DNA of 32,000 nucleotides. Source: Acaryochloris marina MBIC11017. GTDB taxonomy: Bacteria > Cyanobacteriota > Cyanobacteriia > Thermosynechococcales > Thermosynechococcaceae. The number at the start of each line of letters is the position of its first letter. The first letter of the stretch is position 1. A program made the position numbers and the translations under genes. The DNA lies in NCBI RefSeq assembly GCF_000018105.1, contig NC_009925.1, forward strand, positions 60,001 to 92,000, written 5' to 3'. The notes under the pieces were generated by a model. The model saw nothing but the letters and a program-made list of their open reading frames with translations, did no database searches and was not told where the DNA came from. Positions 1,041 through 27,472 of this stretch are shown in pieces.

Positions 1041-2291
1041 TCAATAGTTGAATCGTGTTGGGAACAGAATAGCAAAATGGGACAGCGCCGCCTTCCAATT
1101 CAGAATTGGTCTGGTCCATCGCTTCGAAATATTCCTCATCGCTAGAAACATCAATTTGTAGACAGACTCTTCATTAGGGAAAACCGCTTTGGTCTTAATC
1201 ACCTTTCTCAGTGAGCGGTTGAGCGACTCAATGGCATTGGTGGTGTAGATAACCTTACGGATGGCCATTGGGTATTGAAACAACGGGGCAACATTATCCC
1301 AATGTCGTATCCAGATTTGGCTAATGCCAGGATACGTCTCGTCCCATTTATGGGCAAATGCATCCAACGCAGCCTCAGACTCTTCCAAAGTGGCCGCTTG
1401 GTAAATGGGCTTGAGGTCTGCAGCTACGGCTCGACTTTCCTTCCACGGCACATGGCGAAGGCTATTACGAATAAGATGGACAATACAAACCTGCACCTGG
1501 GTCTGAGGGTAGACCGACTCAATCGCTTGAGGAAAACCTTTGAGTCCATCACAGCAAGCAATCAAGATATCCTGAGTTCCTCGATTTTTAAGGTCTGTGA
1601 GCACCGAAAGCCAGAATTTTGCTCCCTCTCGTTCAGCGGCTCCTATCCATAATCCCAACAGTTCCTTGTTGCCCTCCACAGTCACTGCCAAAGCGACATA
1701 GACAGCTCGCTTGCTGACTTGACCATTGACTTTGATGTTCACATACAGCGCATCAAGATAGACAATCGGATACACCTCATCCAGCGGCCTTGAACGCCAG
1801 TCTTTGACCTCTTCCATGACGCTATTGGTGACGTCACTAATCAGAGCTTCAGAGATATTGGCCCCATACAGCTCCACCAATTGGGCTCGAATATCACGGG
1901 TGGTCATGCCCCGAGCATATAAGGCGATGATTTTCTCATCGAGCCCTGCGATGCGTCGCTGGCCTTTAGGCACCAGGACAGGCTCAAACTCGCCGCAACG
2001 GTCACGAGGAATCGATAGGTCCATCTCTCCTTGTTCAGACTGGACGGTCTTTTTCGAGTAACCATTGCGACTATTTCTGGGGCCATTAGAATTCTCATCA
2101 CCTGACTGATCGTTGGAGGATTGCTGCAGGTGATGAGTCAATTCACCTGCAAGGGCTCGTTCCACTAGGCGTTTGCTGAGTCGTTTAAGCAGTCCTGATT
2201 CGCCCAGAATATCTTCCGGTTGAGGGTTCTCTCCGATGAGTTCATCTAACAGTTCATCGACTCGATTGGGAGCTTTTTTCTTTCTAGACAT
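1041..2291 (-). CDS. IS256-family (Mutator-type) transposase
   Basis: 416 aa. The N-terminus ...LDELIGENPQPEDILGESGLLKRLSKRLVERALAGELTHHL and the core ...YPIVYLDALYVNIK...LIACCDGLKGFPQAIESVYPQTQVQVCIVHLIRNSL...IYTTNAIESLNRSLRKV are classic IS256 transposase motifs. Confidence 0.95.
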   Translation of the reverse strand: MSRKKKAPNRVDELLDELIGENPQPEDILGESGLLKRLSKRLVERALAGELTHHLQQSSNDQSGDENSNGPRNSRNGYSKKTVQSEQGEMDLSIPRDRCGEFEPVLVPKGQRRIAGLDEKIIALYARGMTTRDIRAQLVELYGANISEALISDVTNSVMEEVKDWRSRPLDEVYPIVYLDALYVNIKVNGQVSKRAVYVALAVTVEGNKELLGLWIGAAEREGAKFWLSVLTDLKNRGTQDILIACCDGLKGFPQAIESVYPQTQVQVCIVHLIRNSLRHVPWKESRAVAADLKPIYQAATLEESEAALDAFAHKWDETYPGISQIWIRHWDNVAPLFQYPMAIRKVIYTTNAIESLNRSLRKVIKTKAVFPNEESVYKLMFLAMRNISKRWTRPILNWKAALSHFAILFPTRFNY

Positions 2292-11989: not shown

Positions 11990-13042
11990 TTACTGCCATC
12001 CTGCTCGATCTGCTATTTTGGTTGCTTCTGGATTATTACGTCCATAGGCACTGACGTTGATGGTGTCGGATTTAAATTCGCCATACTCTTTTAAAGCGGG
12101 TGATTCTTCAACCCCAATCACTGCCGGATATTCGTTATTTGCTTCGGCAAACACTTTCTGGGCCTCAGGACTGGTGAGGTACTCCATAAATGCGATCGCA
12201 TTTTCCTTATTAGGTGCATTGGCGACTACGCCAGCCCCACTGATATTGACATGAGTTCCTCTGTCATCCTGGTTAGGGAAAAAGACTCCCACCTTCTCAG
12301 TAATGGCTCTATTCTTAGAATTCTTGGATTGAGCTAAACGGGCCACATAATAGTGATTCACAATAGCTACATCACATTGACCAGCTGCCACCGCTTTAAT
12401 TTGGTCAACGTCTCCTCCTTTGGGAGGACGAGCAAAGTTGGCGACTAAATTTTTGGCCCATTGTTCGGTTTCCGTTTCCCCTTTTGATTCAATAAAGGAT
12501 CCTAGAAGGGATTGATTATAAATATTGTTGGAACTACGAACGCAAACTCTACCTTTCCAAGCAGGTTCTGCCAATGCCTCATAGGTGGAGAGTTCTTCTG
12601 GCTTTACCTTTGCTTTGTTGTATACCAACATCCTCACCCGCCGAGTCAGACCAAACCAAAGACCATCCGGGTGACGGAGATTCTCTGGAATTTTATCTTT
12701 CAGCTGGTTAGAAGAAATTGATTGCAATAAGTTGGCCTGTTCCGCCCGCCATAATCGACCTGCATCAACCGTAATCAACACATCCGCTTGGGGATTGCTG
12801 GCCTCGTTTTTGATTCGCTCAAGTAGCTCATTATCCTTACTTTCTAGTAACTTAACCTCAATTCCCGTTTGCTTGGTGAAGTCTTGATATAAGGCCTGAT
12901 CCGTATCATAGTGTCGGGCAGAATACACCCTCACTATCTTGCCTTCACCATCCGTTTGAGTGTTAGTACATCCACTTGCAACAGCGATAGAGAAAAAGCT
13001 CACTGAAGTAATCAGAGCGATTTTAGAGAGATTGAAGACCAT
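11990..13042 (-). CDS. futA: Fe(III) ABC-transporter periplasmic substrate-binding lipoprotein, FutA/IdiA family
   Basis: It has a lipobox (AVASGC). VYSARHYDTDQALYQDF...ADVLITVDAGRLWRAEQANLLQ...IPENLRHPDGLWFGLT...GTHVNISGAGV...NNEYPA...GWQ* closely resembles cyanobacterial FutA/IdiA proteins as I remember them. Confidence 0.85.
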   Translation of the reverse strand: MVFNLSKIALITSVSFFSIAVASGCTNTQTDGEGKIVRVYSARHYDTDQALYQDFTKQTGIEVKLLESKDNELLERIKNEASNPQADVLITVDAGRLWRAEQANLLQSISSNQLKDKIPENLRHPDGLWFGLTRRVRMLVYNKAKVKPEELSTYEALAEPAWKGRVCVRSSNNIYNQSLLGSFIESKGETETEQWAKNLVANFARPPKGGDVDQIKAVAAGQCDVAIVNHYYVARLAQSKNSKNRAITEKVGVFFPNQDDRGTHVNISGAGVVANAPNKENAIAFMEYLTSPEAQKVFAEANNEYPAVIGVEESPALKEYGEFKSDTINVSAYGRNNPEATKIADRAGWQ

Positions 13043-13057
13043 CTTAAATTCAACGCA

Positions 13058-13085
13058 CTAATGAAAACTATTCTTAATTTATCAG
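13058..13085 (-). promoter_or_regulatory. AT-rich Fur-box-like sequence just upstream of the futA-like gene (speculative)
   Basis: Read in the gene direction it is ctGATAAATTAAGAATAGTTTTCATTAg, 16-43 nt upstream of the ATG. It contains GATAAT-like hexamers, but its match to the 19-bp Fur consensus is only loose. Confidence 0.2.
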
Positions 13086-13286
13086 ACCAGTCTTCAAGCT
13101 ATCGAAGTCTACCAACCTCTGTCAAGCAGGCAAATGCAAGATTGTACCCTGATGGCTCTTCTCACATCAGAGTTCAATCAAGCTGGCACTATCTAACCAC
13201 ATTGAGAAAAATTTTGAATATTCGCTACCACTCTGCTCAGATATCAAGATAAGATTGGCAATCAAATATGAATTTAAAAATCGTTT

Positions 13287-13321
13287 AAATCTAATTTTTA
13301 TATTCCTAAAAAATTAGATTT
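13287..13321. promoter_or_regulatory. 13-bp perfect inverted repeat (aaatctaattttt N9 aaaaattagattt) in the divergent futA / secreted-protein intergenic region
   Basis: The arms at 13287-13299 and 13309-13321 are exact reverse complements. It sits in a 427-bp AT-rich spacer between two divergently transcribed genes. Confidence 0.3.
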
Positions 13322-13481
13322 TTATACTCTCATAAAAAATTATTCAAACGGCAACAAATATATCTAAAAACAACTATCTAGCTAAATTATGTATTTCTAC
13401 TGAGGTCAATAAACCTATTCCAAAATGTAAAATAAGAGTAACAGAATGAGCAGTATTCACCATTTTTAGTTGCGTCAAAGA

Positions 13482-13811
13482 ATGAATAAAAAGCTAGCAG
13501 TTTTAACAGCAATATTCGCCTCCTCTATATCTACAGCTGTTTCGGCGCAAATTGCTCAAGTATCAAATATTCGCCCCCTCGACAAACCAGGGCTATATAT
13601 GGCCAGCGGTGTTTTGCAATATCCTGATGGAGATGCACTACAAGCAGATTTTAGAGTGTATTGTCCGACGAGCATGATACGACCCACAAATTATCAACTA
13701 TTCGATAAATTGGGACATGCCAAACAACAAGGTTCATGGTGGCAAACTGCTTTCCAGCCCAAATATGCATCAGAGTTTACACTTATTAGATCAGTTTGTG
13801 GTGGCGACTAG
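13482..13811 (+). CDS. small secreted protein of unknown function
   Basis: It has a Sec-type signal peptide, MNKKLAVLTAIFASSISTAVSA|Q. The mature part is about 87 aa with 2 Cys. I recognise no motif. The ATG at 13482 is preferred over the TTG at 13470. Confidence 0.5.
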   Translation: MNKKLAVLTAIFASSISTAVSAQIAQVSNIRPLDKPGLYMASGVLQYPDGDALQADFRVYCPTSMIRPTNYQLFDKLGHAKQQGSWWQTAFQPKYASEFTLIRSVCGGD

Positions 13812-15662: not shown

Positions 15663-18600
15663 TTAGAATTGAATGCGATATTCCAACACACCGACGGCTT
15701 CGCCTTCAGAACTGATGGAGGACCGAGCCCTAATTTGATTGTTGATCTCGTAACTCAAGTTAAATAGAGTCGGTTCATCTACCCCTGTCAATATTTGGAG
15801 AACCGATGCAGAGAAGCGATCGGTAATGTCAAATCCTAATTCAGCTCCAAAGGCTAGTACAGCGCTTTGGTTATTGTTCTGATTAGGGAGCAAAACAGGA
15901 AAGGCTCGGAAACTAGCGCGACTTCCCAGAGCATCGTTCAGAGCTTGCTGCACACTGGAGAAAGCTGCGGAGCTGGCAATATTGGCAGCAGCTTGGGTCG
16001 CTTGCCCATCCTGTAGCGACCGTTCCAAGCCACCCCCCAGTAGAGCAATAATTTGGGGATTGGTGCGGCTAGGACGGCTGCTTAAGGTCACGACTTTGTC
16101 AAAGTTAGCGAGGAGTTCGCTGGCCCGTCCATCCACCGTGGCATTCACTTTCACGGATTGGACTGCACCAATGGCACTAGAGGGGACTTCAGCAAACTCA
16201 TTCAAGTCAGTGGTCGTCGCCCTTACCACCTCAGTCACAGTGGTTTTCATACCAATATTGAGATAGGGGTCTAAGCCAAATTGCGAGTCAAAGCTGGCAT
16301 AGTTCTCCCGTCTAGGATCAACACTAAAGAGGGTGGTGGCCAGATTAATGGAGCCTTTACGGAAGCGAACCACACCATCCGCTAAAGGTTGATCCACTTG
16401 TCCATTGATGGTCAGGTCACCGTTCGCGATAAAACTAAGGACGGGCGGTTGAGAGATTTTGACATTATCGCCAATTTGAACCACTAAATTATTGAATTTA
16501 ATCGGATTGTCTACACCCGGCTGAGACACGGTTCCAGGGGCAGAACTATCAGCTCCACTTGCATTGGCTAATTTGACCTTGCCGTTACTAAGCTGTAGTT
16601 TGCCGCTGATCCGAGGTTGTAAAGCACTTCCCTTGACGACAATGGCTCCATTCACGCCTCCCTGATAGAGTTCCTGCACATTGAGATCTAAATCTTCTAA
16701 TTTGACGGCTAAGGCCTGTTGGTTCGACCCTTGGAAAATGGGCAGACTTCCAGTGGTTTCTAGCTGGCCATCATCGATCTTGGCCGTTAAGCGAGGAATG
16801 GTCACTAGGTTACTATCAAATTTGATCAAGCCATTCAAATTGGTGAGGGGCTGTTTCAGGGCCGCAGCCTGAAGTTTGGCATCTTGGAATCGGATGCTAC
16901 CGTCCACAATAGGCTGATCAATCGTGCCCTTGACATTGACATCTAGAGCGCCATTACCGCCTTCCCAGGTGACTTGGTCTGTAAATAAGCTCAGGAGGGA
17001 TAAGCCATCATTTCGAATACTTGCTGTGAGGGAGACCTGATCCGTCGCTGGCTTTACTGTTGAGAAAACCGGTACAAAGGGGACTTCCCCCTTTAGGACC
17101 AAGGGTTGGGAGTTATTAATCCGAGCCTGACTATCAATCTTGAGGAGCGCTTGTTTATAGCTCAAGGTGGTTTGAGCACTATTAATAACGGCATCGTCCA
17201 ACCGCCCTTCTACTAGCTCAAACTGACCTTCTAGCTGAGGGTCTTCCAAGTTTCCAGCCAAATTGAGGGTGCCATTTAATTTGCCGGTGACGGTGACAGG
17301 TAAATCCAAGAAGGGGTTAATGGGTTCAACGGAAATATTTTGCAGCCGCAGTCGCCCCGACTGATAAGAACTGCCTAGCTGCCCTTGAAAAGCCAATAGA
17401 CTCTCACCCGTTTTGACACGCAGGGGCTGTAAACTGAGCAGGCCATCTTCCAGTTCGCCTTTAACCACGAGTTGATCTATGCCAGACAACCCCAACTTAA
17501 AATCTTGTCCCCGAATATCGAAATCAGCATTCACCCCAGTTTTGACGGATCCTGCAAAGTCTATTTGTCCGCCAAATTGCCCCGTTAGGCCATCTAAGGC
17601 GAACAGACTTTGCTCCTGTTGATTCGCTTGGAGAATGGCTAACTGCCGAATTTCAGAAAAACGGCGCAGTTGAGACAGTAATGGGCCATTTACGCCAACC
17701 GGAATGGTTTGCAAATCTGCTGCTGTTCCATAGGTTTTAGGCTGCTGGGGGGATCCGATATTTGCAAAATCGATAGACTCATACAACGCCACAACATCAG
17801 CAATATTGCCTTTCGTAATCGCTAAGTCACCTGAGTACTGCGGATTATCACTGGCAATAAATTTCGCATTTAATACATACTGACTTTCATCCTTGAGCAA
17901 TGTCCCCTGATCTAAATTAGCGATTCCATCTCGATAACGAATCTTGCCCGTTAGGGTTTTAGCTTGAATCTGGTTAAGGGCCGGTTGATCAACGGCAAAG
18001 CTACCCTCTAGGGTTTGCTGTTTCAGGTTGGCTAGGAACTGACCCGATGCAGTCCCAGAGACCGTTCCTAACCCTAAATTAGCGATGGAACCTAAATTCA
18101 AGGGTTGTAGGGGAAATTGTTTGACTTCTGCCCGGAGGATATTGCCTTGGGTTGTCCCTTGGGCGATGGCCTGATCTCTGCGAATCAGAAAAGAGTTGGG
18201 CAAGAATTGAGAGTTGAGAGAAACATCGATGCGATCTCGTTCTCCTCCCACCTTCATTTCAACCCCTGGGCCAAAGGCCAAGTCCCCTTTCATTACCGGT
18301 TCAAACCGAAACTGAAACAACGCTAAGTCTTCTAGCTGTAAAGTCGCCACTAAATTGGGGGCTTCGGGGGTTCCGGTAATGCGGCCTATCAAGTCGGCCT
18401 GCCCGGTCAAGGGAATTGCTGTGGGTCCCAAGGCTGCTAGGGTTCGTAAATCATAATTATCAGCCTTGATGTTCAGATCCATCGCGGTGATCTGGGGACC
18501 TTGAGGAGACTGTAAATTAGCATCAATGGTACCATCGGCTCGAAACCCCTTAGCCGTCGCCGACTGCACCACAATCTGACGCCCCGTCCATCGGAATCGA

Positions 18601-20873
18601 GCATCTAACGGCTGTTCTAGCAGGGATAATCCCTGGGAAAAATTAACTTGGCCTTGAGCCCGCAGGGTGTTAGGGCTGAGGGCTGCAATGGGGCCATTGA
18701 GGGCAATATTTCCACTCAAAGCGCCTTTTAATTCGGGGGCAAAGTTGGATAGCTTAATGCCCGCCAATCTGACATCCGCTTTCAGATCAGTTTGATCAAA
18801 ATACCCATCCAGCCGAGCGGTTCCACCAGCCACTTGGGCCACAACATTGTCTAACCGAGTAATTCCTTTTCGTAAGCGCATCTCACCATTGGTGGGATAT
18901 GTGGCACGGGGCGCTTGAAAAGCAATTTGGGTGCGTAGATCTTCGGGTTGCCCCCGAACCTGGGTCTGAGCGTTGATGGGGCCAATCGTTAAACCCGAGG
19001 GTACGTCGTATAGGGATGCGATCGCATCCCCAGGCAACCCAACAACATCTACATCCGCCGCTAGGTCTGCCCCCGGTAAAAGGTTATAGCGGGCCGTTCC
19101 CGTAATCTCGCCCCCAGCCTCAGGCACTGCCAAAATACGGCTAACATTCAGGGACGGATTATCTAAAATGAATTGGGCCTTGATCGTCTCAAAGGGCACC
19201 CGGTCAATCTTCGTACCAGAGGCCATCACAACTTCCCCGGCAATAAAGGGACGATCAATCGGACCCGTAATCCGAATCTCCGGAAGACTCACCTCCCCAG
19301 CAATGGGCACCGGCAATGCGGGCACCTCCATGGTGGTCAGAGCCGTATTAACATCCAGTCCAGGAACCTGGGCAGAAAGGCTATAACCCCGATCAATATC
19401 AATCGAACCTTTGGCGGCAACGGGAACTTGGTCATATCGAGCCGTCACCCCTTCTAGGGTGGCAGTTAATCCCCGTAAACGAATAAATCCATTGGCATCA
19501 TAGAAAGACTTGGGCAAGCCGATCAGTTGAGCATCAATATCCTTCATGCGGGCAGTGCCTCGCATACTGGGCCGTTTAGCTTGATCTAGATACAACGTGA
19601 CGTTGGCATCGACCTGACCCGAACGAATGGCTACAGGTGTTTGAAACGCCCGATCAAAAATAGGTGCAGAAACATTCTGGGCCAATACCGAAACTTTAAT
19701 TTTGCTTAAATCGAGGGTTGTTTCCCCCTTGGTCCGCAGTCGGCCCCCACTGGCAATGGTGCCTCGGGCCTCAAACTGGAGGAGTTCTTCATCCTTTAGA
19801 AATTTTAGAGTGCCATTTGTACGACGCAGTTGCTGACGTTGCGATCGCCCATTTTGAAACAGTAAATTTTCAGGTACATAAAGATCCGCAGATCGGAATT
19901 GGGCTTCTCCCCCCACCTTGGGGAGTTGCTGATTGGGAGAATACTCAACATCCAACTCTCCCTGAAATTCCTCCGCCTTTACCCAAATATTCTGTTCAGG
20001 AACGCGAATATCAGCATCTTTGACTTCTGTTGTCCCAGTCAATTGAATGGGTTCTTGAGGTTGATAGGTTAGCTGGAAATCCCCATCCACTTCTCCCGAT
20101 CGAATTTGAATGGGAATCTCTGTGGGCACAAACCCCATAAGTGGAGTTATTTGAACCTGTTTGGCCTTGACATCTAACTTTAGGGATTGACTAGGCTGCA
20201 ACCACTCCCCTTTCAGCCTCGCTTTACCACCAGAATCTAAAGTGCCATTCCCTTCAACTTTCAGCTTCTCATTGTTGTCATGGAGCGTTAGAACACCCTT
20301 TAAATTCCTCAGGGTCCGAGCCTCCGCTCCATAAGGATCAATAACCGCTTCTCCCCCATCGACACTTAGGGAATCAAGCTGAATCTTGACCAATCCCTCA
20401 GAATCCTCCTGAGTGAGAGTGGTTGAAATCCATTCTCCATCTTCTGTTTGGTCAAGATACAATTCTGCATCCACCAAAGTCACATCTAAATTAAGAGTCC
20501 GGGTCCAGAGGGCTTTCCAAACATCAAACTGAACATTAACGGTTTGAACCTTGCCTGCATCCTTATCTTCAATGGTGCGACCGTTGCTTGAATAAGTATG
20601 AGCAGGTACTGAAGATGGCCCAAACTGCAGTCCCGTCAGGGAATAGCTTTGCACATCACCTAATAGCACTGGGCGATTCAGAGACTTTGTCAGTTCTTTG
20701 GCAATCTGGGGAGCAAGTTCATTATTTATAAAGCCTAGGATTCGCCAACCGCCCCAAATTAAGATCCCGAGAAGAATAAGGGCTGTACCTATCACTGGGC
20801 GACTAAATAAAATCAGCCAGAGGCGGCGGGATGGGCGTGGAGCTTGCTCTCCACCAGATGGTTCTTGAGGCAT
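15663..20873 (-). CDS. tamB: translocation and assembly module protein TamB homologue (DUF490 C-terminus; cyanobacterial counterpart of plant TIC236)
   Basis: 1736 aa. It has an N-terminal membrane anchor (LWLILFSRPVIGTALILLGILIWGGW) and a long beta-rich body of repetitive G-x-(L/V)-x-(L/V) motifs. The C-terminus ...LAFGAELGFDITDRFSASVLQ...VGVLEYRIQF is typical of TamB/DUF490. It ends 39 nt upstream of the mscS-like gene on the same strand. Confidence 0.85.
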   Translation of the reverse strand: MPQEPSGGEQAPRPSRRLWLILFSRPVIGTALILLGILIWGGWRILGFINNELAPQIAKELTKSLNRPVLLGDVQSYSLTGLQFGPSSVPAHTYSSNGRTIEDKDAGKVQTVNVQFDVWKALWTRTLNLDVTLVDAELYLDQTEDGEWISTTLTQEDSEGLVKIQLDSLSVDGGEAVIDPYGAEARTLRNLKGVLTLHDNNEKLKVEGNGTLDSGGKARLKGEWLQPSQSLKLDVKAKQVQITPLMGFVPTEIPIQIRSGEVDGDFQLTYQPQEPIQLTGTTEVKDADIRVPEQNIWVKAEEFQGELDVEYSPNQQLPKVGGEAQFRSADLYVPENLLFQNGRSQRQQLRRTNGTLKFLKDEELLQFEARGTIASGGRLRTKGETTLDLSKIKVSVLAQNVSAPIFDRAFQTPVAIRSGQVDANVTLYLDQAKRPSMRGTARMKDIDAQLIGLPKSFYDANGFIRLRGLTATLEGVTARYDQVPVAAKGSIDIDRGYSLSAQVPGLDVNTALTTMEVPALPVPIAGEVSLPEIRITGPIDRPFIAGEVVMASGTKIDRVPFETIKAQFILDNPSLNVSRILAVPEAGGEITGTARYNLLPGADLAADVDVVGLPGDAIASLYDVPSGLTIGPINAQTQVRGQPEDLRTQIAFQAPRATYPTNGEMRLRKGITRLDNVVAQVAGGTARLDGYFDQTDLKADVRLAGIKLSNFAPELKGALSGNIALNGPIAALSPNTLRAQGQVNFSQGLSLLEQPLDARFRWTGRQIVVQSATAKGFRADGTIDANLQSPQGPQITAMDLNIKADNYDLRTLAALGPTAIPLTGQADLIGRITGTPEAPNLVATLQLEDLALFQFRFEPVMKGDLAFGPGVEMKVGGERDRIDVSLNSQFLPNSFLIRRDQAIAQGTTQGNILRAEVKQFPLQPLNLGSIANLGLGTVSGTASGQFLANLKQQTLEGSFAVDQPALNQIQAKTLTGKIRYRDGIANLDQGTLLKDESQYVLNAKFIASDNPQYSGDLAITKGNIADVVALYESIDFANIGSPQQPKTYGTAADLQTIPVGVNGPLLSQLRRFSEIRQLAILQANQQEQSLFALDGLTGQFGGQIDFAGSVKTGVNADFDIRGQDFKLGLSGIDQLVVKGELEDGLLSLQPLRVKTGESLLAFQGQLGSSYQSGRLRLQNISVEPINPFLDLPVTVTGKLNGTLNLAGNLEDPQLEGQFELVEGRLDDAVINSAQTTLSYKQALLKIDSQARINNSQPLVLKGEVPFVPVFSTVKPATDQVSLTASIRNDGLSLLSLFTDQVTWEGGNGALDVNVKGTIDQPIVDGSIRFQDAKLQAAALKQPLTNLNGLIKFDSNLVTIPRLTAKIDDGQLETTGSLPIFQGSNQQALAVKLEDLDLNVQELYQGGVNGAIVVKGSALQPRISGKLQLSNGKVKLANASGADSSAPGTVSQPGVDNPIKFNNLVVQIGDNVKISQPPVLSFIANGDLTINGQVDQPLADGVVRFRKGSINLATTLFSVDPRRENYASFDSQFGLDPYLNIGMKTTVTEVVRATTTDLNEFAEVPSSAIGAVQSVKVNATVDGRASELLANFDKVVTLSSRPSRTNPQIIALLGGGLERSLQDGQATQAAANIASSAAFSSVQQALNDALGSRASFRAFPVLLPNQNNNQSAVLAFGAELGFDITDRFSASVLQILTGVDEPTLFNLSYEINNQIRARSSISSEGEAVGVLEYRIQF

Positions 20874-21208
20874 GAGTTATAAGCTGCCGACTAAATCAAA
20901 AAGTTACGGTTGCACGACTCAATGGATGTAATGCAGATTACCACCCAGATGGCCTTAGAGGACGAAACCTAAATTACAAATCCCCTCATGAAACTAAAAT
21001 CATCCTGTTCTTATGAGATTAGGCTGATGGTGAAATTAATACATCTATCTGAAGAGAGACATTAGGTATTTTATACAAAGTTTAGAAGATATTACTTCTG
21101 TATCTTTATATATTTCCTTCTAAACGCATTAGTAACCGATCAGGGTATTTACTAGATATTTCAATTAACTTTCGTTAAAACTTGAACATTATTTTAGTAG
21201 TTCGCTGA

Positions 21209-21232
21209 TGAGTCGTTGTAGATGACGACTCA
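21209..21232 (+). promoter_or_regulatory. 8-bp-stem hairpin (tgagtcgt-tgtagatg-acgactca) about 90 nt upstream of the TPS exoprotein gene
   Basis: The stem is a perfect 8-bp pairing of 21209-21216 with 21225-21232. The 10-mer acgactcaat of the 3' arm recurs at 20914-20923 in the same intergenic region. Confidence 0.3.
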
Positions 21233-21322
21233 ATAGAACTACCTCATCCAATGTGTCAGTCAAAAAGCCCTCTTTATTGTCTTCATAGTGTTAGAACCCC
21301 AAAATTTATAGGTGGGTGAAGT

Positions 21323-23506
21323 ATGAATAGCAAAGCCACCTTTCTCCAAGCAGCCATAATTTGGACGTGTCTCTTCTCGCCGACCTTAGCCCAAATCACC
21401 TCAGATGGGACGACAGGAAGCATCGTCAACCAAAACAACTCAAGATTTCAAATTGAGGGAGGGGTAACTAGAGGGAACACCCTGTTTCACAGTTTCGAGA
21501 AATTTAGTATCCCCACAAACAATCAAGCCTACTTTACTAATCCCAGTGGGATCAACTTGATATTGTCTCGTGTAACGGGTAAAGGAATATCAAATATAAA
21601 TGGCACTTTGGGGGTTGAGGGAGGTGCTGATTTATTTTTAATGAATCCAAATGGAATTATCTTTGGCCCTAATGCGTCACTAGATTTGAATGGTTCGTTT
21701 TTGGCCACCACTGGTAGCAGTTTTGTATTTGAGGATGGTAAGACTTTTAGTGCCACTAACCCTACATCCGTTCCAAATTTCAAGGTTAGTGTTCCACTAG
21801 GGATTCAATTTGGGAATGTCGCTGCAGAAATCAAGGTTCAAGCACGAAGTGGAATCAGTTATAGTCCTTATAAATCTTACTTTGAGTGTGATTGTGGCCT
21901 ATCAATCAATTCCGGCAACACAATTTCCTTTCTTAGTGGAGACTTTACTTCTGAACGAGGGGTTATAAATGCTCCAAATGGAAATATTGAAATTGGTAGT
22001 GTGGATGCTGATAGTTTTGTGAATTTAAATCCATTTACTAGTGGTTGGTCATTGGGATACTCAAAAGTAAATAGCTTCAAAGATATATCTTTATCAGGTG
22101 GGTATATTTATAATTCAAATTACTCTGGCAAAGCTGGCAATAGGATTAGATTCTATTCAAGGAAACAAATCATTCGAGATAAAGCACTAATCAAGACATT
22201 TTCTTATAACAATGGAATTAGAGGAAAAGTACTTATTAATGCAGCGGAATCTGTAAGCATATCAAGTGGTGGAAAAATTATTTCATGGTCAGGAGATTTT
22301 TTAGGAAGTGATCAGAGTATTGGTGGGGATATAGAGATCAATACAGGCTCATTATCTATATCAAATCTAGGGATAATATTTACCGACAGTGTCAATCAAT
22401 CAACTGGAGGGAATATAAATATTCAGTCTAAAGATCTGAAGTTAACTAATGGAGGTAGAATTAAAACTATTGCCTTGGATTCTGGTAGTGCTGGAAATAT
22501 TAATATCCAAGTCTCAGATAGCACTAATATCTCTGGAAAGGATGGGTATTTTGATACTCACTTTAATAATAAAATATATGTTGATAGTGGAATTTCTTCA
22601 ACTTCATATGGGGTGGGAAAAACTGGAAATTTATCCTTGTCCACAAAAGATATAGAAATTAGTAACGGAGCTGGAATAGGTGTATTAGGGCTTGGGAATG
22701 GTCCTACAGGCTTTCTCAATATAAAAGGGGAGAATTTAACTCTTAATAATAATGCCTATATTTCAATGAAGGTAACGAATAATAAACTTGGCAACTTGAA
22801 TATTGATATGAGCAATCTTCTTTTAATGAATAATCAGAGTAAAATCACCTACGAAGCAGAAGGACTTGGTATTGGAGGAAAAGCAAGCATTAGTGCACCT
22901 ATGATTGTTGCATTTCCTAATGAGAATAGTGACATCATCTTAGATGCTCCTATGGCAGATACTTCAATCAATGCTAAAGAAGTATTAGGTTTCACAAAAA
23001 ACTCCAAACCAACTAAGATGAGTGATATTGTCGTTAACTCGGAAGATGATCGTGAGTTAGTAGGAGAATATGGGCGGACTTCTAGGTTAAAAGTATCTGA
23101 ATATAGAGAAGCTCCGGTTCAACCACAGAGAATCGTTAAAGGATGTCGCCCTGGTCAAGCTTTAGGGAACGGACATTTTGCCTATAAAGGCAAAGGTGGA
23201 TTACCTCCTAATCCATATCAGAACCGAACTATGCCAGCCGTTTGGCAAGATCTACGATTGCATGATTTAGAATCAAATTCAGTTAATAAGTACATAAAAC
23301 TATCTCATCAGATATCTAAAGCGATTAGGGACGAAAATAAGCATCAAACGCCAAGAGAATCAGTTGTTGAAAAAAATATTGTTGCTGAGGAAGAAATTAT
23401 TGAAGCGAAAGGCTGGATTGAAGATAAGAAAGGGCAGATAATTCTGACTTCTTCTCCAAAAAAGAATGTCGTCACCGCCAATTATCAACCGACAGCAACT
23501 TGTTAA
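21323..23506 (+). CDS. two-partner-secretion family exoprotein (filamentous-haemagglutinin N-terminal / haemagglutination-activity domain protein), short form
   Basis: Signal peptide MNSKATFLQAAIIWTCLFSPTLA|Q. The TPS domain is ITSDGTTG...GNTLFHSFEKFSIPTNNQAYFTNPSGINLILSRVTGKGISNINGTL...DLFLMNPNGIIFGPNASLDLNGSFLATT. The body has beta-helix-like repeats (GGNINIQSKDLKLTNGG, SAGNINIQVSDSTNISG, TGNLSLSTKDIEISNGAG). The C-terminal module is C...GKGGLPPNP...AVWQDLR...IIEAKGWIEDKKGQIILTS...C*. Confidence 0.85.
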   Translation: MNSKATFLQAAIIWTCLFSPTLAQITSDGTTGSIVNQNNSRFQIEGGVTRGNTLFHSFEKFSIPTNNQAYFTNPSGINLILSRVTGKGISNINGTLGVEGGADLFLMNPNGIIFGPNASLDLNGSFLATTGSSFVFEDGKTFSATNPTSVPNFKVSVPLGIQFGNVAAEIKVQARSGISYSPYKSYFECDCGLSINSGNTISFLSGDFTSERGVINAPNGNIEIGSVDADSFVNLNPFTSGWSLGYSKVNSFKDISLSGGYIYNSNYSGKAGNRIRFYSRKQIIRDKALIKTFSYNNGIRGKVLINAAESVSISSGGKIISWSGDFLGSDQSIGGDIEINTGSLSISNLGIIFTDSVNQSTGGNINIQSKDLKLTNGGRIKTIALDSGSAGNINIQVSDSTNISGKDGYFDTHFNNKIYVDSGISSTSYGVGKTGNLSLSTKDIEISNGAGIGVLGLGNGPTGFLNIKGENLTLNNNAYISMKVTNNKLGNLNIDMSNLLLMNNQSKITYEAEGLGIGGKASISAPMIVAFPNENSDIILDAPMADTSINAKEVLGFTKNSKPTKMSDIVVNSEDDRELVGEYGRTSRLKVSEYREAPVQPQRIVKGCRPGQALGNGHFAYKGKGGLPPNPYQNRTMPAVWQDLRLHDLESNSVNKYIKLSHQISKAIRDENKHQTPRESVVEKNIVAEEEIIEAKGWIEDKKGQIILTSSPKKNVVTANYQPTATC

Positions 23507-23716
23507 TGCAGAGTTTTCACTTTTTCTGAGGCTTGCCAACAGTTAAGATATGTAAAAACGGGAGTAAATGTTGATCCCACTCCTGAAATATCTACAGAAT
23601 AGCAACTCCATATTCCAGATTTGCATGCTGACCAAGCACCTTAATCTCTTTTCCCATCTGAGAATTTTGCTGTTTGCTCCTTCCCCGTTGTCCGCAGACC
23701 GTAAAGCAGGAAAATT

Positions 23717-24205
23717 ATGAACAAGACTGTTTTGTGCATCCCAACAGCGTTAGCATGGATGTTGCTTCTCTCTCCAGGCCAAGCCCAACAAGCACCTATA
23801 AAATCAATCTCAGCGCAACGACAGAACTCTGCCTTAGCCACACACACCAGCAGAACTCAAAAATTACAGGCAAAGAAGAACTGCCATACAAATCAACCCT
23901 CGGTATACCGTCCCAGCAATCCTATCCGTACCATCCAATCCCCCACACCTCAACAGCAGCGACCAGTCAGAACTGCGGTCTGGCAAGATTTACGATCGCC
24001 TGGTTCCACTTCATCCTCCATTGACCTTCATGAGTCAGAATTATCCAATACTGCTGCCCGGAGCTACCAAACAACATTGCCTAAACGCCCCGTTATTGTA
24101 GAAGCCCAAGGTTGGACTCGGGACAAGCAAGGCCGCGTCTTCTTAACTTCAAGGTTCTCTAGATTTAGAAAGAATAGAGCTGTTCCATCCAATGGGGAAT
24201 GTTGA
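23717..24205 (+). CDS. secreted 162-aa protein consisting of a signal peptide plus a paralogue of the C-terminal module of the upstream TPS exoprotein
   Basis: AGGA lies 8 nt upstream of the ATG. The signal peptide is MNKTVLCIPTALAWMLLLSPGQA|Q. It then reads C(56)-x33-WQDLR ... VIVEAQGWTRDKQGRVFLTS ... C(162)*, colinear with residues 608-727 of the 727-aa protein. Confidence 0.65.
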   Translation: MNKTVLCIPTALAWMLLLSPGQAQQAPIKSISAQRQNSALATHTSRTQKLQAKKNCHTNQPSVYRPSNPIRTIQSPTPQQQRPVRTAVWQDLRSPGSTSSSIDLHESELSNTAARSYQTTLPKRPVIVEAQGWTRDKQGRVFLTSRFSRFRKNRAVPSNGEC

Positions 24206-24448
24206 CCACAGCAACTTTTTTAGGTGTATCAAGGCTAGACAACAAATAGACTTTTCCTGTATTGGGCCAACCCAGGCAGAAGGCCGTATTAATCGAGCCT
24301 TTGCCTGGGTTTTAGTATGTTTAGTCCTCTTTTCCTAATCAGATGGGTGGTCTCATTCATGTTTGTAAATCAGGACCAGAGAAAGTTCCTGGGTTTGCAG
24401 GTAACAAGCAATGCAAACTATAGATGCAGAAGCATTCTGGTTTCAGAC

Positions 24449-25570
24449 ATGACCAATCCTCTATCAGACCCTTTGCAGCAAGGTTACGTTGATTATTTTT
24501 ATGACCAAGCAGGCAGCTCTCCTGGAACCCTGACGATTGACGAAGATGCTTCACCCACTCGGATTGTTGTCATCGATTACAACCCACATCAAGCCCGCCG
24601 GATCATCGTTGAACAACCTGAAGAAAGTGCAGATTATCTGACCACAGAAACCGTTTCTTGGATTGATGTTCAGGGACTAGGGGATGAGGATATTCTGCGC
24701 CGATTAGGACAAACTTTCGATCTGCATCCCTTGGTTTTGGAAGATGTGGTGAATGTACCTCAACGCCAAAAAGTTGAGGATTTCGATGATCAGCTTTTAA
24801 TTATTGCCCGTATGGTTCTTCCTCACCCTGAAGGCGTCGGGTTTGTAAGTGAACAAGTCAGCTTTATCTTGCATCAGCAAGCATTATTGACGATTCAAGA
24901 AGAGCCTTTCCATGATTCATTTGGGCCAGTTCGCAAGCGAATTCGATTGCAGAAGGGATTGATGCGAAAAATGGGGGCTGACTTTCTCACCTATGCCCTC
25001 TTAGACGCCATTATTGATGGTTTCTTCCCGGTGCTAGAACTTTACGGAGAGCGGTTAGAAACCTTAGAAGATGAAATACTCGACAATCCCACGCGAGAGA
25101 CCCTCAACCAAGTTCACTCTCTCAAACGTGAGTTGATGAATCTACGACGACTGAGTTGGTCACAACGGGATGCTTTATCTGCCCTCCTACGGGAAGATAG
25201 CCCCCTAATCAGCCAAGAGGTAAAAGTGTATCTAAGGGACTGTTACGACCATTCCATCCAGATCTTAGACATGGTTGAAACATATCGAGATTTCGCGGCC
25301 AGTCTGATGGATGTTTATCTATCTTCTGTGAGCAATAAAATGAACGAAGTGATGAAAGTCCTCACGGTCATCTCAACAATCTTTATTCCCTTAACCTTTA
25401 TTTCAGGGCTCTATGGCATGAACTTTAACCCTCAAGTTTCCCCTTTTAACATGCCTGAGTTGAGCTGGTACTGGGGATATCCTGCGGTCATCGCTACCAT
25501 GTTGCTGATTTCGGGAAGTCTAAGCTATTTATTTTGGCGTCGCGGTTGGTTTAGCAAGGTATCACCTTGA
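24449..25570 (+). CDS. corA: CorA-family magnesium/cobalt transporter
   Basis: The C-terminal TM pair carries the signature YGMNF (GMN motif) followed by ...WYWGYP. The soluble N-terminal domain includes WIDVQGLGDEDILRRLGQTFDLHPLVLEDV. The ATG at 24449 (MTNPLSDP...) is preferred. The 44 codons upstream in the ORF track look non-coding. Confidence 0.9.
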   Translation: MTNPLSDPLQQGYVDYFYDQAGSSPGTLTIDEDASPTRIVVIDYNPHQARRIIVEQPEESADYLTTETVSWIDVQGLGDEDILRRLGQTFDLHPLVLEDVVNVPQRQKVEDFDDQLLIIARMVLPHPEGVGFVSEQVSFILHQQALLTIQEEPFHDSFGPVRKRIRLQKGLMRKMGADFLTYALLDAIIDGFFPVLELYGERLETLEDEILDNPTRETLNQVHSLKRELMNLRRLSWSQRDALSALLREDSPLISQEVKVYLRDCYDHSIQILDMVETYRDFAASLMDVYLSSVSNKMNEVMKVLTVISTIFIPLTFISGLYGMNFNPQVSPFNMPELSWYWGYPAVIATMLLISGSLSYLFWRRGWFSKVSP

Positions 25571-26574: not shown

Positions 26575-27472
26575 GAGGCTGTTTGAGAAGTGAGTAAAGC
26601 TCTCAAGGTACTAATCTGTCAATACACAAACATTGGACAGGACCTAGAGAGCAATGCCTACAGCATATGATAGCGACCTCACCACCCTCCAATGGGAATT
26701 ACTTGAGCCCTTGATTCCTGCTGCTAAACCTGGAGGTAGACCTCGCACCACTGATATGCTCAGTGTTCTCAATGCCATTTTTTATCTTGTGGTTACGGGT
26801 TGTCAGTGGAGACAACTACCCCATGATTTTCCCTGTTGGTCAACGGTCTATAGCTATTTTCGAAGGTGGCGCGATGATGGGACTTGGGTCCACATCAATG
26901 AACATCTGCGCATGCAAGAGCGGGTGAGTGAAGACCGTCATCCAAGTCCCAGTGCCGCCATCTGCGATGCTCAATCGGTTAAAGTCGGCAATCCTCGGTG
27001 TCACTCGATTGGGTTTGATGGTGGGAAAATGGTCAAAGGTCGTAAACGTCATGTGCTCGTTGATACTTTAGGGCTGGTTTTGATGGTGATGGTCACTGCT
27101 GCCAATATCTCTGACCAACGAGGGGCCAAAATACTGTTTTGGAAAGCTCGACGCCAAGGTGCGAGTTTGTCCCGTCTAGTTCGCATATGGGCCGATGCTG
27201 GCTATCAAGGACAAGCTTTGATGAAGTGGGTAATGGACCGTTTTCAATATGTCTTGGAAGTAGTCAAACGCTCAGATAATCTTGCGGGGTTTCAGGTTGT
27301 TTCCAAACGATGGATTGTAGAACGGACGTTTGGATGGTTGTTGTGGTCTCGACGTCTTAATAAAGATTATGAGGTGCTGACCAGAACAGCTGAAGCGCTC
27401 GCATATGTGGCGATGATTCGACTCATGGTTCGAAGGCTAGCGCAGGAGCACTAAAACTTCTCAAACAGCCTC
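26575..27472 (+). mobile_element. intact IS5-family insertion sequence (898 bp)
   Basis: The 16-bp terminal inverted repeats are perfect: gaggctgtttgagaag (26575-26590) and cttctcaaacagcctc (27457-27472). It has a single 266-aa DDE transposase ORF and a 3-bp tca direct repeat. Confidence 0.9.
26654..27454 (+). CDS. IS5-family DDE transposase (DUF4096 N-terminal plus DDE_Tnp_1-like)
   Basis: DLTTLQWELLEPLIPAAKPGGRPRTTDMLSVLNAIFYLVVTGCQWRQLPHDFPCWSTVYSYFRRWRDDGTW, followed by ...ICDAQSVK...GKMVKGRKRHVLVDTLGLVL...WADAGYQG...RWIVERTFGWL...RRLNKDYE. These are hallmark motifs of this transposase group. Confidence 0.95.
   Translation: MPTAYDSDLTTLQWELLEPLIPAAKPGGRPRTTDMLSVLNAIFYLVVTGCQWRQLPHDFPCWSTVYSYFRRWRDDGTWVHINEHLRMQERVSEDRHPSPSAAICDAQSVKVGNPRCHSIGFDGGKMVKGRKRHVLVDTLGLVLMVMVTAANISDQRGAKILFWKARRQGASLSRLVRIWADAGYQGQALMKWVMDRFQYVLEVVKRSDNLAGFQVVSKRWIVERTFGWLLWSRRLNKDYEVLTRTAEALAYVAMIRLMVRRLAQEH

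What the first reader, a model, noticed from the sequence alone, without database searches (positions are those of the whole stretch)
23144..24205. A Cys-bounded C-terminal module of the TPS exoprotein recurs as a stand-alone secreted mini-protein encoded immediately downstream
Seen in sequence:
- The last 120 aa of the 727-aa TPS protein and residues 56-162 of the next ORF are colinear.
- Both begin with a Cys, have W-Q-D-L-R with the Trp at exactly position 34 counted from that Cys (PAVWQDLRL / TAVWQDLRS), and share (I/V)(I/V)EA(K/Q)GW..DK.G...LTS.
- In both, the very last residue is a Cys (...PTATC*, ...SNGEC*).
- The signal peptides are also alike (..CLFSPTLAQ / ..LLLSPGQAQ).
- The short motif is conserved at the DNA level: 23237-23261 versus 23975-23999 match at about 20 of 25 nt.
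- Composition differs sharply. The mini gene is G+C-rich (35/60 in 23941-24000), while the TPS gene body is very AT-rich (16-17/60 in the lines I counted).

Established knowledge: in classical two-partner secretion the N-terminal TPS domain is the export signal. I know of no described function for this cyanobacterial-type C-terminal tail (GGLPPNP ... W.D.R ... EAqGW...G...LT).

Inference: the tail is an autonomous, probably disulfide-closed domain. The mini-protein could be a competitor or plug, a chaperone-like partner or an anchoring adaptor for the same receptor or transporter. It could also be the in-frame relic of a resident paralogue whose beta-helix was deleted. The intact signal peptide, intact frame and retained terminal Cys argue against simple decay.
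Basis: partly seen in the sequence, partly recalled or inferred. Interest (0 to 1): 0.72.

Follow-up and report, generated by a model that had tools for sequence, protein, structure and literature searches.

The report
Stand-alone copy of a secretion-protein tail
A small conserved exported protein of the cyanobacterium Acaryochloris marina is an ancient cut-down version (signal peptide plus cysteine-bracketed tail) of a large two-partner-secretion surface protein; that tail is a widespread, unnamed end-piece of cyanobacterial proteins of this class and probably acts as an anchor or docking piece.

Summary
The window is Acaryochloris marina MBIC11017: TPS protein AM1_0075 (21323-23506) and the 162-aa ORF AM1_0077 (23717-24205). 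Their Cys-to-Cys modules are homologous (BLASTP E=3e-9), and so are their signal peptides.

The tail is not local. A profile search found it at the extreme C-terminus of 172 protein clusters, mostly TPS-domain proteins of cyanobacteria. All 151 hits carrying the EAxGW motif have one Cys about 28 residues after the Trp. Pfam, NCBIfam and PDB sequences do not cover it.

AlphaFold2 models the tail as disordered apart from one beta-hairpin, so it is not a globular domain.

The mini gene is real: intact in all 10 homologues (34-99% identity), both Cys invariant, dN/dS 0.12-0.28. It does not depend on its neighbour. The TPS gene is 5'-deleted, almost wholly deleted or absent in related genomes that keep the mini gene.

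The origin is an old in-frame internal deletion of a TpsA gene, later domesticated.

The closest known thing is the disulfide-bonded C-terminal anchor of HMW1/HxuA. The function (anchor or docking piece; mini as decoy or occupant of the same partner) is inferred, not shown.

Elsewhere, exported TPR-CHAT proteases are encoded immediately downstream of tail-bearing TPS genes.

The parts
21323..23506 (+). TpsA-type exoprotein gene (AM1_0075, 727 aa): signal peptide, TPS domain, beta-helix and C-terminal tail.
   Evidence: Pfam TPS PF05860 at E=3.4e-57, residues 23-273. NCBIfam TIGR01901. AF2 models a beta-helix over residues 25-572 with pLDDT above 90. Foldseek's best hits are EtpA, HxuA, HMW1, FHA and HpmA. 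Exact match to ABW25163.1. GC3 is 0.28.
21323..21394 (+). Signal peptide of the TPS protein (MNSKATFLQAAIIWTCLFSPTLAQ).
   Evidence: Read from the sequence. It shares 9/24 residues with the mini signal peptide; non-clade TPS signal peptides share at most 7/24.
23144..23506 (+). Cys608-Cys727 tail module of the TPS protein (plus stop codon).
   Evidence: Modelled as disordered apart from the hairpin.
23177..23215 (+). Motif 1, F..Y.GKGGLPPNP (family consensus F..TGRGGLP..P). Absent from the mini protein.
   Evidence: F, G, GG and two P are invariant or nearly invariant in alignments A4 and A6. The mini aligns here with gaps or unrelated residues.
23237..23260 (+). Motif 2, AVWQDLRL (family consensus VW.D.R).
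23396..23452 (+). Motif 3, IIEAKGWIEDKKGQIILTS: the only confidently modelled element, a beta-hairpin.
   Evidence: Strands 697-700 and 706-709 in the full-length model. In the tail-only model the hairpin blocks (residues 141-160) have pLDDT 84-91. E, A, W and G are invariant.
23532..23716 (+). Region upstream of the mini gene that stays alignable even in a genome with no TPS gene; a likely own promoter and 5' region.
   Evidence: blastn: window 23532-24205 aligns to L001 9786-10474 at 65% identity, starting 26 nt after the TPS stop codon. No strong consensus promoter or terminator was found.
23717..24205 (+). Mini-protein gene (AM1_0077, 162 aa): signal peptide, linker and degenerate tail module.
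   Evidence: Nine homologues at 34-99% identity. Invariant C56, AVWQDLRS, EAQGW.RD..GR..LT and C162. dN/dS 0.12-0.28. Exact match to ABW25165.1, annotated 'hypothetical protein'. GC3 0.44.
23717..23788 (+). Signal peptide of the mini protein (MNKTVLCIPTALAWMLLLSPGQAQ).
   Evidence: 14/24 residues identical to the signal peptide of the orthologous TPS protein in L004 (P0014). It shares 9-10/24 with the other three clade TPS proteins and at most 7/24 with 40 other TPS signal peptides.
23882..24202 (+). Cys56-Cys162 module of the mini protein.
23975..23998 (+). Motif 2 in the mini protein, AVWQDLRS (invariant in all 10 mini homologues).
24092..24151 (+). Motif 3 in the mini protein, VIVEAQGWTRDKQGRVFLTS (hairpin motif).
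   Evidence: Assigned by homology to the modelled hairpin.

Best explanation
SHOWN.
- AM1_0075 is a TpsA-type beta-helix exoprotein. Its last ~120 residues belong to a cyanobacteria-wide, unnamed C-terminal tail family.
- The tail is a largely disordered stretch bracketed by two conserved cysteines. It carries three short motifs: F..TGRGGLP..P, VW.D.R, and the beta-hairpin IVEAQGW..D..G.V.LT.
- AM1_0077 is an old in-frame internal-deletion derivative of such a TpsA. The clade-specific signal peptide is joined to the tail; the TPS domain, the beta-helix and the GRGGLP motif are lost.
- The derivative has been domesticated. Purifying selection keeps it in Acaryochloris lineages whether or not the neighbouring TPS gene survives.

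INFERRED, tail.
- The tail is the functional counterpart of the HMW1/HxuA C-terminal anchor.
- The C-terminus is the last part to leave the periplasm. The two consecutive Cys are oxidised there.
- The closed loop with its hairpin cannot follow the beta-helix through the TpsB pore, or it is held by a periplasmic partner.
- The exoprotein therefore stays tethered until it is released. Candidate partners are TpsB POTRA domains or the exported TPR-CHAT protease encoded next to most tail-bearing TPS genes.

INFERRED, mini.
- The mini protein is exported by Sec into the periplasm.
- It displays the same W-D-R motif, hairpin and Cys pair but has no passenger.
- It therefore most likely occupies or competes for the tail-binding partner, acting as a decoy or regulator of tethering or release for whichever tail-bearing TpsA proteins the cell makes. 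These include plasmid-borne ones.
For: Homology and family:
- BLASTP E=3e-9 between the two proteins.
- The profile search found 172 cluster representatives, with the module always at the extreme C-terminus. 43 of 52 long hits carry Pfam TPS.
- Cys pair: 151/151 for the second Cys and 138/151 for the first, with fixed spacing after EAQGW.
- No Pfam, NCBIfam or PDB sequence match.

Structure:
- The beta-helix is confident. The tail has pLDDT 31-44 apart from the hairpin.
- This matches HxuA, whose 66 C-terminal residues are invisible in the crystal (PMC5422565).

Mini is a real, selected gene:
-.
- It is present alone in L001/L013, L014, L015, L017 and L005/6.

Origin:
- The signal-peptide similarity is specific to clade TPS proteins.
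- The closest non-mini tails are Acaryochloris TPS tails.
- Deletion series at the same locus: L007 lacks window 21321-22942; L005/6 lack 21199-23381.
- Other shortened forms exist: a 324-aa TPS-domain+tail protein in Calothrix (L028), the 200-aa P0017, and the 168-aa P0126 (signal peptide + tail) 75 nt downstream of another tail-ending gene.
- The mini has native GC3 (0.41-0.47). All Acaryochloris TPS genes, plasmid-borne ones included, have 0.26-0.30. The mini is therefore not a recent copy of its neighbour.

Partners exist:
- 13 TPR-CHAT proteins sit immediately downstream of TPS+tail genes, and all have signal-peptide-like N-termini.
- A TpsB lies next to one tail gene.
- Acaryochloris 'Moss Beach' plasmid pMB08 carries TPS+tail, ShlB and CHAT in a row. 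The same strain has the mini gene.
Against: - No experiment or expression data for either protein was found.
- There is no sequence similarity to the HxuA or HMW1 C-termini.
- The HMW1 disulfide loop is, from my memory of Buscher et al. 2006 and not checked here, only about ten residues. Here the loop is about 105-120 residues.
- A disordered disulfide-closed loop is topologically a hairpin and might still pass a TpsB pore.
- No TpsB or CHAT gene lies in this window.
- The mini lacks the GRGGLP motif, so it may not bind the same partner.
- The AF2 models rest on only 43-47 sequences, so a fold-upon-binding structure would be missed.
Confidence: 0.5

Rival explanations
1. The tail is mainly a recognition or cleavage module for the exported TPR-CHAT (caspase-like) protease. 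TPR repeats bind the disordered tail, and CHAT cuts after a conserved basic or acidic residue (GR|GG or W.D.R) to mature or release the exoprotein. The mini is then a decoy substrate or inhibitor, or a second substrate that yields a small disulfide-closed peptide.
For: - TPR-CHAT genes lie immediately downstream and on the same strand in 13 of the 20 non-Acaryochloris loci examined.
- All 13 have signal-peptide-like N-termini.
- The same cassette is on an Acaryochloris plasmid.
- The tail is disordered with short invariant motifs, which is typical of TPR ligands and protease sites.
- The mini keeps W-D-R invariant.
Against: - No CHAT gene lies near AM1_0075/0077 or near any mini locus.
- The mini lacks GRGGLP.
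- CHAT specificity is unknown, and no cleavage data were found. Literature searches for the CHAT-TPS link returned nothing.
- Gene adjacency alone does not show a substrate relationship.
Confidence: 0.2
2. AM1_0075 and AM1_0077 form a dedicated two-gene unit. This is the first reader's reading: the mini is a plug, chaperone or adaptor specific to the exoprotein encoded just upstream.
For: - Same strand, 210-nt spacing and homologous tails.
- The same order is found in L004.
- A second, independent case exists of a tail-ending gene followed by a signal-peptide+tail gene, on the 929-bp contig L012.
Against: - The mini is retained, under purifying selection, where the TPS gene has lost its 5' 540 codons (CCMEE 5410 type, L007). 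It is also retained where all but about 125 bp of the TPS gene is gone (L005/6), where there is no TPS gene (L001/L013), and in unrelated contexts (L014, L015, L017).
- The mini has its own conserved upstream region.
- Between the same two genomes, synonymous divergence of the TPS gene (dS 0.85) differs from that of the mini (0.28) and CorA (0.36). Composition differs too. The two genes have separate histories.
Confidence: 0.08
3. The mini ORF is a functionless relic of a deleted TpsA that has not yet decayed.
For: - Relics of this kind do form at this locus: a 179-aa tail-only ORF without a signal peptide in CCMEE 5410, and a 125-bp stump in L005/6.
- No expression or peptide evidence was found.
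Against: - dN/dS is 0.12-0.28 over dS from 0.28 to saturation.
- Length (155-166 aa), signal peptide, both Cys and two motifs are kept down to 34% identity and across four genomic contexts.
- Composition has fully ameliorated to the genome.
Confidence: 0.05
4. The tail and the mini act outside the cell. The two Cys form intermolecular disulfides, or the hairpin extends a beta-sheet. Either would link beta-helix proteins to each other or to a surface layer, with the mini as a secreted cap or cross-linker.
For: - There are exactly two conserved Cys per tail, and a lone beta-hairpin suited to strand addition.
- Tail-bearing TPS genes often occur in tandem arrays (L019, L021, L028, L029, L035).
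Against: - The mini has no TPS domain, so it has no evident route across the outer membrane.
- Consecutive Cys exported by Sec are normally joined intramolecularly (established knowledge of DsbA-type oxidation).
- There is no evidence of polymers.
Confidence: 0.07

Closest known systems
C-terminal disulfide-bonded anchor domain of the TpsA proteins HMW1 and HxuA of Haemophilus influenzae (Buscher et al. 2006, as summarised in PMC5422565)
   Same: It lies at the extreme C-terminus of a TpsA beta-helix protein. It has a conserved Cys pair. It is not part of the folded passenger: HxuA's last 66 residues are invisible in the crystal, and here the tail has pLDDT 31-44. It is the last part of the protein to leave the periplasm.
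   Different: There is no detectable sequence similarity. The loop here is about 105-120 residues and carries three cyanobacteria-specific motifs. The family is associated with TPR-CHAT, CHASE2 and DUF928 genes. Nothing equivalent to a stand-alone, signal-peptide-bearing copy is mentioned in the TPS review read (PMC5422565) or turned up in my searches. Disulfide formation and tethering are untested here.
FhaB C-terminal prodomain of Bordetella (periplasmically retained, later degraded). Cited from my own knowledge; not checked with the tools.
   Same: A C-terminal TpsA region that stays in the periplasm and controls maturation or release of the passenger.
   Different: The FhaB prodomain is about 1,200 residues, has no Cys-pair logic and is unrelated in sequence. 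It was not tested here.
Cyanobacterial 'filamentous hemagglutinin N-terminal domain-containing protein' / ShlB-family TpsB / TPR-CHAT gene cassettes (as annotated in RefSeq)
   Same: AM1_0075 has the same TPS domain, beta-helix and tail as the first gene of these cassettes.
   Different: AM1_0075 and AM1_0077 sit in the chromosome between tamB and corA, with no TpsB or CHAT gene in the 32-kb window.

Membership tests
TpsA exoprotein of two-partner (type Vb) secretion: applies to AM1_0075 | N-terminal TPS secretion domain after a Sec signal peptide | tested here: met
   PF05860 at E=3.4e-57, residues 23-273. TIGR01901 at E=6e-26.
TpsA exoprotein of two-partner (type Vb) secretion: applies to AM1_0075 | Right-handed beta-helix passenger resembling solved TpsA structures | tested here: met
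   The AF2 model has mean pLDDT 80.8, with the helix over residues 25-572. Foldseek top hits are EtpA, HxuA, HMW1, FHA and HpmA at E from 6e-9 to 1e-4.
TpsA exoprotein of two-partner (type Vb) secretion: applies to AM1_0075 | Cognate TpsB (ShlB/FhaC-type Omp85) transporter encoded alongside | tested here: not met
   No ShlB or POTRA_2 protein is among the window ORFs scanned. ShlB genes do exist on Acaryochloris plasmids, so a transporter encoded elsewhere is possible.
TpsA exoprotein: applies to the mini protein AM1_0077 | TPS secretion domain | tested here: not met
   No Pfam or NCBIfam hit. No match to the local TPS-domain HMM. The mini is a derivative of a TpsA, not a TpsA.
HMW1/HxuA-type C-terminal disulfide anchor of TpsA | Located at the extreme C-terminus of a TpsA | tested here: met
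   In all full-length hits the module ends 0-40 residues (60 in one hit) from the C-terminus.
HMW1/HxuA-type C-terminal disulfide anchor of TpsA | Conserved pair of cysteines | tested here: met
   151/151 hits have the second Cys and 138/151 have the first. Those lacking the first are mostly N-terminally cut fragments. Both are invariant in A1, A2, A4 and A6.
HMW1/HxuA-type C-terminal disulfide anchor of TpsA | Sequence relatedness to the HMW1/HxuA C-termini | tested here: not met
   A profile of 43 tails searched against all PDB chain sequences gave no TpsA hit at E<=10. Whether the deposited HxuA chains include the C-terminal 66 residues was not checked. This means analogy at most, not homology.
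HMW1/HxuA-type C-terminal disulfide anchor of TpsA | Disulfide actually formed; C-terminus retained in the periplasm or TpsB pore; exoprotein tethered to the cell | not testable with these tools
   Needs redox gels, fractionation and Cys mutants.
Cyanobacterial TPS C-terminal tail family (unnamed; defined here by profiles A2/A4): applies to the mini protein | VW.D.R motif, EAQGW..D..G.V.LT hairpin motif, and a Cys pair with the second Cys about 28 residues after the Trp | tested here: met
   The local tail HMM hits the window mini at E=4.6e-16.
Cyanobacterial TPS C-terminal tail family (unnamed): applies to the mini protein | F..TGRGGLP..P motif between the first Cys and the Trp | tested here: not met
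   All mini homologues have unrelated or gapped sequence here, whereas F, G, GG and two P are at least 90% conserved in TPS tails. The mini is a degenerate member.
Pseudogene or decaying relic: applies to the mini ORF | Frameshifts or stops in relatives, or dN/dS near 1 | tested here: not met
   All 10 homologues are intact. dN/dS is 0.12-0.28.

The most novel reading that the evidence does not exclude
The Cys-bracketed tail is the common docking and cleavage handle of a cyanobacteria-wide envelope system. In it, periplasmic TPR-CHAT (caspase-like) proteases control the tethering and release of TPS-exported beta-helix surface proteins. Acaryochloris has evolved a free, passenger-less tail (AM1_0077) as a soluble decoy or regulator of that system. 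This would be the first stand-alone TpsA anchor module and a natural tool for probing how TpsA C-termini are held at the transporter.
Probability: 0.15. Interest if true: 0.7.

Novelty: new variant of a known kind. Interest (0 to 1): 0.45.

Why it matters
How TpsA proteins are kept on the cell or released from it is known for only a few pathogens (HMW1, HxuA, FhaB).

This work adds three things:
- A large, unannotated cyanobacterial tail family with the same logic: an extreme C-terminal position and an invariant Cys pair. It could be given a domain model.
- A consistent link between that family and exported TPR-CHAT proteases.
- A naturally occurring tail-only protein under purifying selection.

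If the anchor/decoy reading holds, AM1_0077 gives a simple genetic and biochemical handle on tethering in a phylum where TPS biology is essentially unstudied.

If it does not hold, the result is still a clean example of gene miniaturisation: an in-frame internal deletion followed by domestication, documented by a deletion series among sister strains.

Tried and rejected
- Chance similarity: rejected.
- Known-family assignment of the tail or the mini: nothing in Pfam-A, NCBIfam or PDB sequences. The only mini hit was BamI at E=0.18, taken as noise.
- Globular-domain idea: two AF2 runs (tail plus 60 upstream residues with 43 sequences; full length with 47 sequences) show disorder apart from one hairpin. 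I therefore ran no fold search on the tail alone.
- Operon or terminator signals between the two genes: nothing above shuffle expectation.
- Literature: no paper links CHAT, DUF928 or CHASE2 with cyanobacterial TPS proteins, or mentions AM1_0075/0077. Hits to those strings were unrelated.
- Expression evidence: the supplements of three A. marina transcriptome papers held nothing searchable for these genes.
- Extending the second 'tail gene + signal-peptide/tail mini' case (L012, a 929-bp contig): a metagenome scan with P0126 found only ordinary full-length TPS+tail genes. That case rests on one short contig.
- P0017 (200 aa; signal peptide + 60 aa of TPS domain + tail, next to tamB in L011) looked like a caught-in-the-act internal deletion. 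Its tail is identical to that of a longer TPS gene fragment (contig-cut at its 5' end) from a MAG with the same contig-naming style (L016). An assembly collapse cannot be excluded.
The 8-sequence alignment was used instead.
- The plasmid-borne paralogue P0018 could be read only on 2-kb contigs. The MBIC11017 plasmids are not in the plasmid collection. The related pREC4 locus shows no TpsB, CHAT or mini neighbour.
- TamB adjacency as functional: not conserved. It is absent in L001, L013, L014, L015 and L017, so I treat it as coincidental.

Full report
**1. What is in the window**

Exact-sequence look-up identifies the window as Acaryochloris marina MBIC11017.
- The 727-aa protein is AM1_0075 (ABW25163.1, 'Haemagglutination activity domain protein').
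- The 162-aa protein is AM1_0077 (ABW25165.1, 'hypothetical protein').

The local gene order, is:
- an MscS-type channel gene (-)
- tamB (15663-20873, -)
- AM1_0075 (21323-23506, +)
- AM1_0077 (23717-24205, +)
- corA (24317-25570, +)
- a LapA-domain gene
- an IS4/5-family transposase
- a TPR gene
- a rhomboid gene
- a phosphoglucomutase gene

No TpsB-type (ShlB/POTRA_2) or CHAT gene is in the 32 kb.

**2.

- BLASTP of the two proteins gives E=3e-9 over PNP...AVWQDLR...EA(K/Q)GW...LTS. A second, weaker segment covers the signal peptides.
- Both modules start at a Cys (608 and 56) and end at the terminal Cys. Trp is residue 34 from the first Cys in both.
- The AVWQDLR codons match at 21/25 nt.
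- The exact '34' is a coincidence of this pair. Several mini orthologues have a 2-residue deletion there.

**3. The tail is a large unnamed family**

I built a profile from the Cys-to-Cys modules of both protein classes (A2). I searched it against 1.84 billion cluster representatives.
- 172 hits had E<=1e-3. In nearly all of them the match sits at the very C-terminus of 600-1600-aa proteins, or in fragments of such proteins.
- Of 52 long hits, 43 carry the Pfam TPS domain. The others are N-terminally cut, or are four low-complexity false positives.
- The named source genomes and MAGs are all cyanobacteria: Acaryochloris, Nostoc, Calothrix, Coleofasciculus, Symploca, Phormidium, Phormidesmis, Aphanothece, Xenococcaceae and Elainellaceae.
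- The family consensus is C......S.F..TGRGGLP..P.....VW.D.R, then a variable low-complexity linker, then IVEAQGW..D..G.V.LTA..P...P......C.
- Every one of the 151 hits with the EAxGW motif has exactly one Cys after it, usually 29 residues after the Trp. 138 have exactly one Cys 42-90 residues before it. The exceptions are mostly N-terminally truncated fragments.
- Pfam-A, NCBIfam and a profile search of all PDB sequences give nothing for the tail.

**4. Structure**

- Full-length AM1_0075 was modelled with a 47-sequence alignment. It gives a confident TPS domain and beta-helix over residues 25-572 (pLDDT mostly above 90).
- Residues 576-727 have pLDDT 31-44. The exception is a two-stranded hairpin at 697-709.
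- A separate run on the last 180 residues gave the same picture, with hairpin pLDDT 84-91.
- Foldseek places the helix with EtpA, HxuA, HMW1, FHA and HpmA.
- The tail is therefore a disordered, motif-bearing extension bracketed by two Cys. In these models it is not an autonomous globular domain.

**5. The mini gene is real and selected**

- Nine homologues at 34-99% identity were found. All are 157-163 aa and come from Acaryochloris isolates and MAGs. The profile search added two more, of 166 aa and 155 aa (P0016, P0023).
- C56, AVWQDLRS, EAQGW.RD..GR..LT and C162 are invariant, and a signal peptide is present in all.
- Nei-Gojobori dN/dS is 0.12-0.28 for every pair whose dS is not saturated.
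- The mini has lost the F..TGRGGLP motif.

**6. The adjacency is not conserved**

| Locus | Arrangement |
|---|---|
| L004 | tamB, TPS (768 aa), mini, corA |
| L007-L010 (CCMEE 5410 type, seen in 16 samples) | Window 21321-22942 is replaced by a 133-nt element with inverted-repeat ends. A 179-aa tail-only ORF without a signal peptide remains, then the mini. |
| L005/L006 | Window 21199-23381 is missing. Only about the last 125 bp of the TPS gene remain upstream of the mini. |
| L001/L013 | The mini sits upstream of corA with no tamB or TPS gene. DNA similarity to the window starts 26 nt after the TPS stop codon. |
| L014, L015 (=L002), L017 | The mini is in three unrelated contexts, with no tail or TPS gene within 6 kb. 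|

- The MAG that holds L017 has a TPS+tail gene on another contig (L016).
- The TPS gene also has a different history from its flanks. For window versus L007, dS is 0.85 for the TPS tail, 0.28 for the mini and 0.36 for corA.
- All Acaryochloris TPS genes, plasmid-borne ones included, have GC3 of 0.26-0.30. The mini and its neighbours have 0.41-0.47, with one mini at 0.34.

**7. Origin**

- The mini signal peptide shares 14/24 residues with that of the L004 TPS orthologue and 9-10/24 with the three other clade TPS proteins. It shares at most 7/24 with 40 other TPS signal peptides aligned at the cleavage site.
- The closest non-mini relatives of its tail are Acaryochloris TPS tails.
- Both ends of the mini therefore derive from a clade TpsA. 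The simplest route is an in-frame internal deletion that removed the TPS domain and the beta-helix.
- Shortened derivatives of several sizes exist elsewhere:
  - a 324-aa TPS-domain+tail protein after a 1037-aa TPS protein in Calothrix NIES-267 (L028)
  - a 669-aa segment with only a partial TPS-domain match (L041)
  - the 200-aa P0017, which may be an assembly artefact
  - the 168-aa P0126 (signal peptide + tail), 75 nt downstream of another tail-ending gene on a 929-bp contig
- Native composition and deep divergence show the event is old.

**8. Context of the family elsewhere**

- In 13 of the 20 non-Acaryochloris loci, the gene immediately downstream of the TPS+tail gene, on the same strand, encodes a TPR-CHAT protein of about 800-975 aa. 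CHASE2 and DUF928 genes recur nearby.
- All 13 CHAT proteins begin with a signal-peptide-like segment.
- A ShlB-type TpsB sits between a tail ORF and CHAT in L024.
- In Acaryochloris 'Moss Beach' plasmid pMB08 the order is TPS+tail (whose TPS domain starts mid-way, directly downstream of an IS630 transposase gene), ShlB, CHAT. That strain also has the mini gene.

**9. Mechanism**

- Established knowledge: some TpsA proteins (HMW1, HxuA) remain attached through a small C-terminal periplasmic piece. Its disulfide locks the C-terminus at the TpsB. HxuA's last 66 residues are disordered in the crystal (PMC5422565).
- The cyanobacterial tail shares the position, the Cys pair and the disorder, but not the sequence.
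- I therefore read it as an analogous anchor or docking module. Either it jams at the TpsB, or it is held, and perhaps cut, by the exported TPR-CHAT.
- The mini is exported by its signal peptide and has no TPS domain to take it across the outer membrane. It would present the W-D-R motif, the hairpin and the Cys pair in the periplasm. Most plausibly it occupies the same partner.
- These steps are inference. None is shown.

**10. Verdict**

It is right on the separable Cys-bounded module, on the deletion origin and on 'not decay'. It is wrong on a folded domain and on a dedicated pairing with the upstream gene. It also overlooked the HMW1/HxuA precedent.
- Novelty: a new variant of a known kind. 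It comprises an unannotated family of TpsA C-terminal Cys-pair tails and a domesticated stand-alone copy.
- Interest is moderate at 0.45. It would be higher if the CHAT-controlled tethering and decoy reading proves true.

Noticed in passing
L007 9674-9806 (Acaryochloris sp. CCMEE 5410 type; corresponds to the junction between window 21320 and 22943): A 133-nt insert bounded by 39-nt imperfect inverted repeats sits exactly where the 5' 1.6 kb of the TPS gene is missing. It looks like a MITE-like element associated with the deletion. No other copy is present in the window or in the fetched loci.
   Followed up: partly
window 26654-27454: An IS4/5-family DDE transposase gene (DUF4096 + DDE_Tnp_1) lies between the LapA-domain gene and the TPR gene. 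It is absent at that position in the syntenic loci L004, L005 and L007, so it is a strain-specific insertion.
   Followed up: partly
window 1041-2291: A Mutator-family transposase gene on the minus strand.
   Followed up: no
window 21845-22316: The central beta-helix part of the TPS gene cannot be aligned at DNA level with the orthologue in L004, although both flanks align at about 78%. This is a variable cassette. The TPS gene as a whole also shows roughly 2-3 times the synonymous divergence of its neighbours.
   Followed up: partly
L018-L037 and L046 (other cyanobacteria; Acaryochloris 'Moss Beach' plasmid pMB08): There is a recurrent cassette: one or more TPS+tail genes in tandem, followed by an exported TPR-CHAT protease. 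A ShlB-type TpsB and CHASE2 or DUF928 genes are often nearby. I found no paper describing this association.
   Followed up: partly
L043/L044 and L045 9001-10629: A. marina carries further tail-bearing TPS genes on plasmids. They are P0018 (ABW32808.1), on a 177-kb record that I take to be a plasmid, and a 542-aa paralogue on pREC4 of MBIC10699. Both have the same low GC3 (0.26-0.28) as the chromosomal copy. The family looks mobile in this genus.
   Followed up: partly
window 23674-24024: A 116-aa ORF in another frame overlaps the mini gene and has no support. It is most likely spurious.
   Followed up: no
window 24317-25570: The corA ORF is 417 aa here, against 403 aa and 373 aa for the gene calls in L007 and in L004/L005. 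The conserved part starts near window 24449, so the annotated start is probably too far upstream.
   Followed up: no
window 13001-13500: A low-GC stretch (0.32) lies just after the end of the solute-binding-protein gene (11990-13042), upstream of the short ORF at 13470-13811. It was not examined.
   Followed up: no
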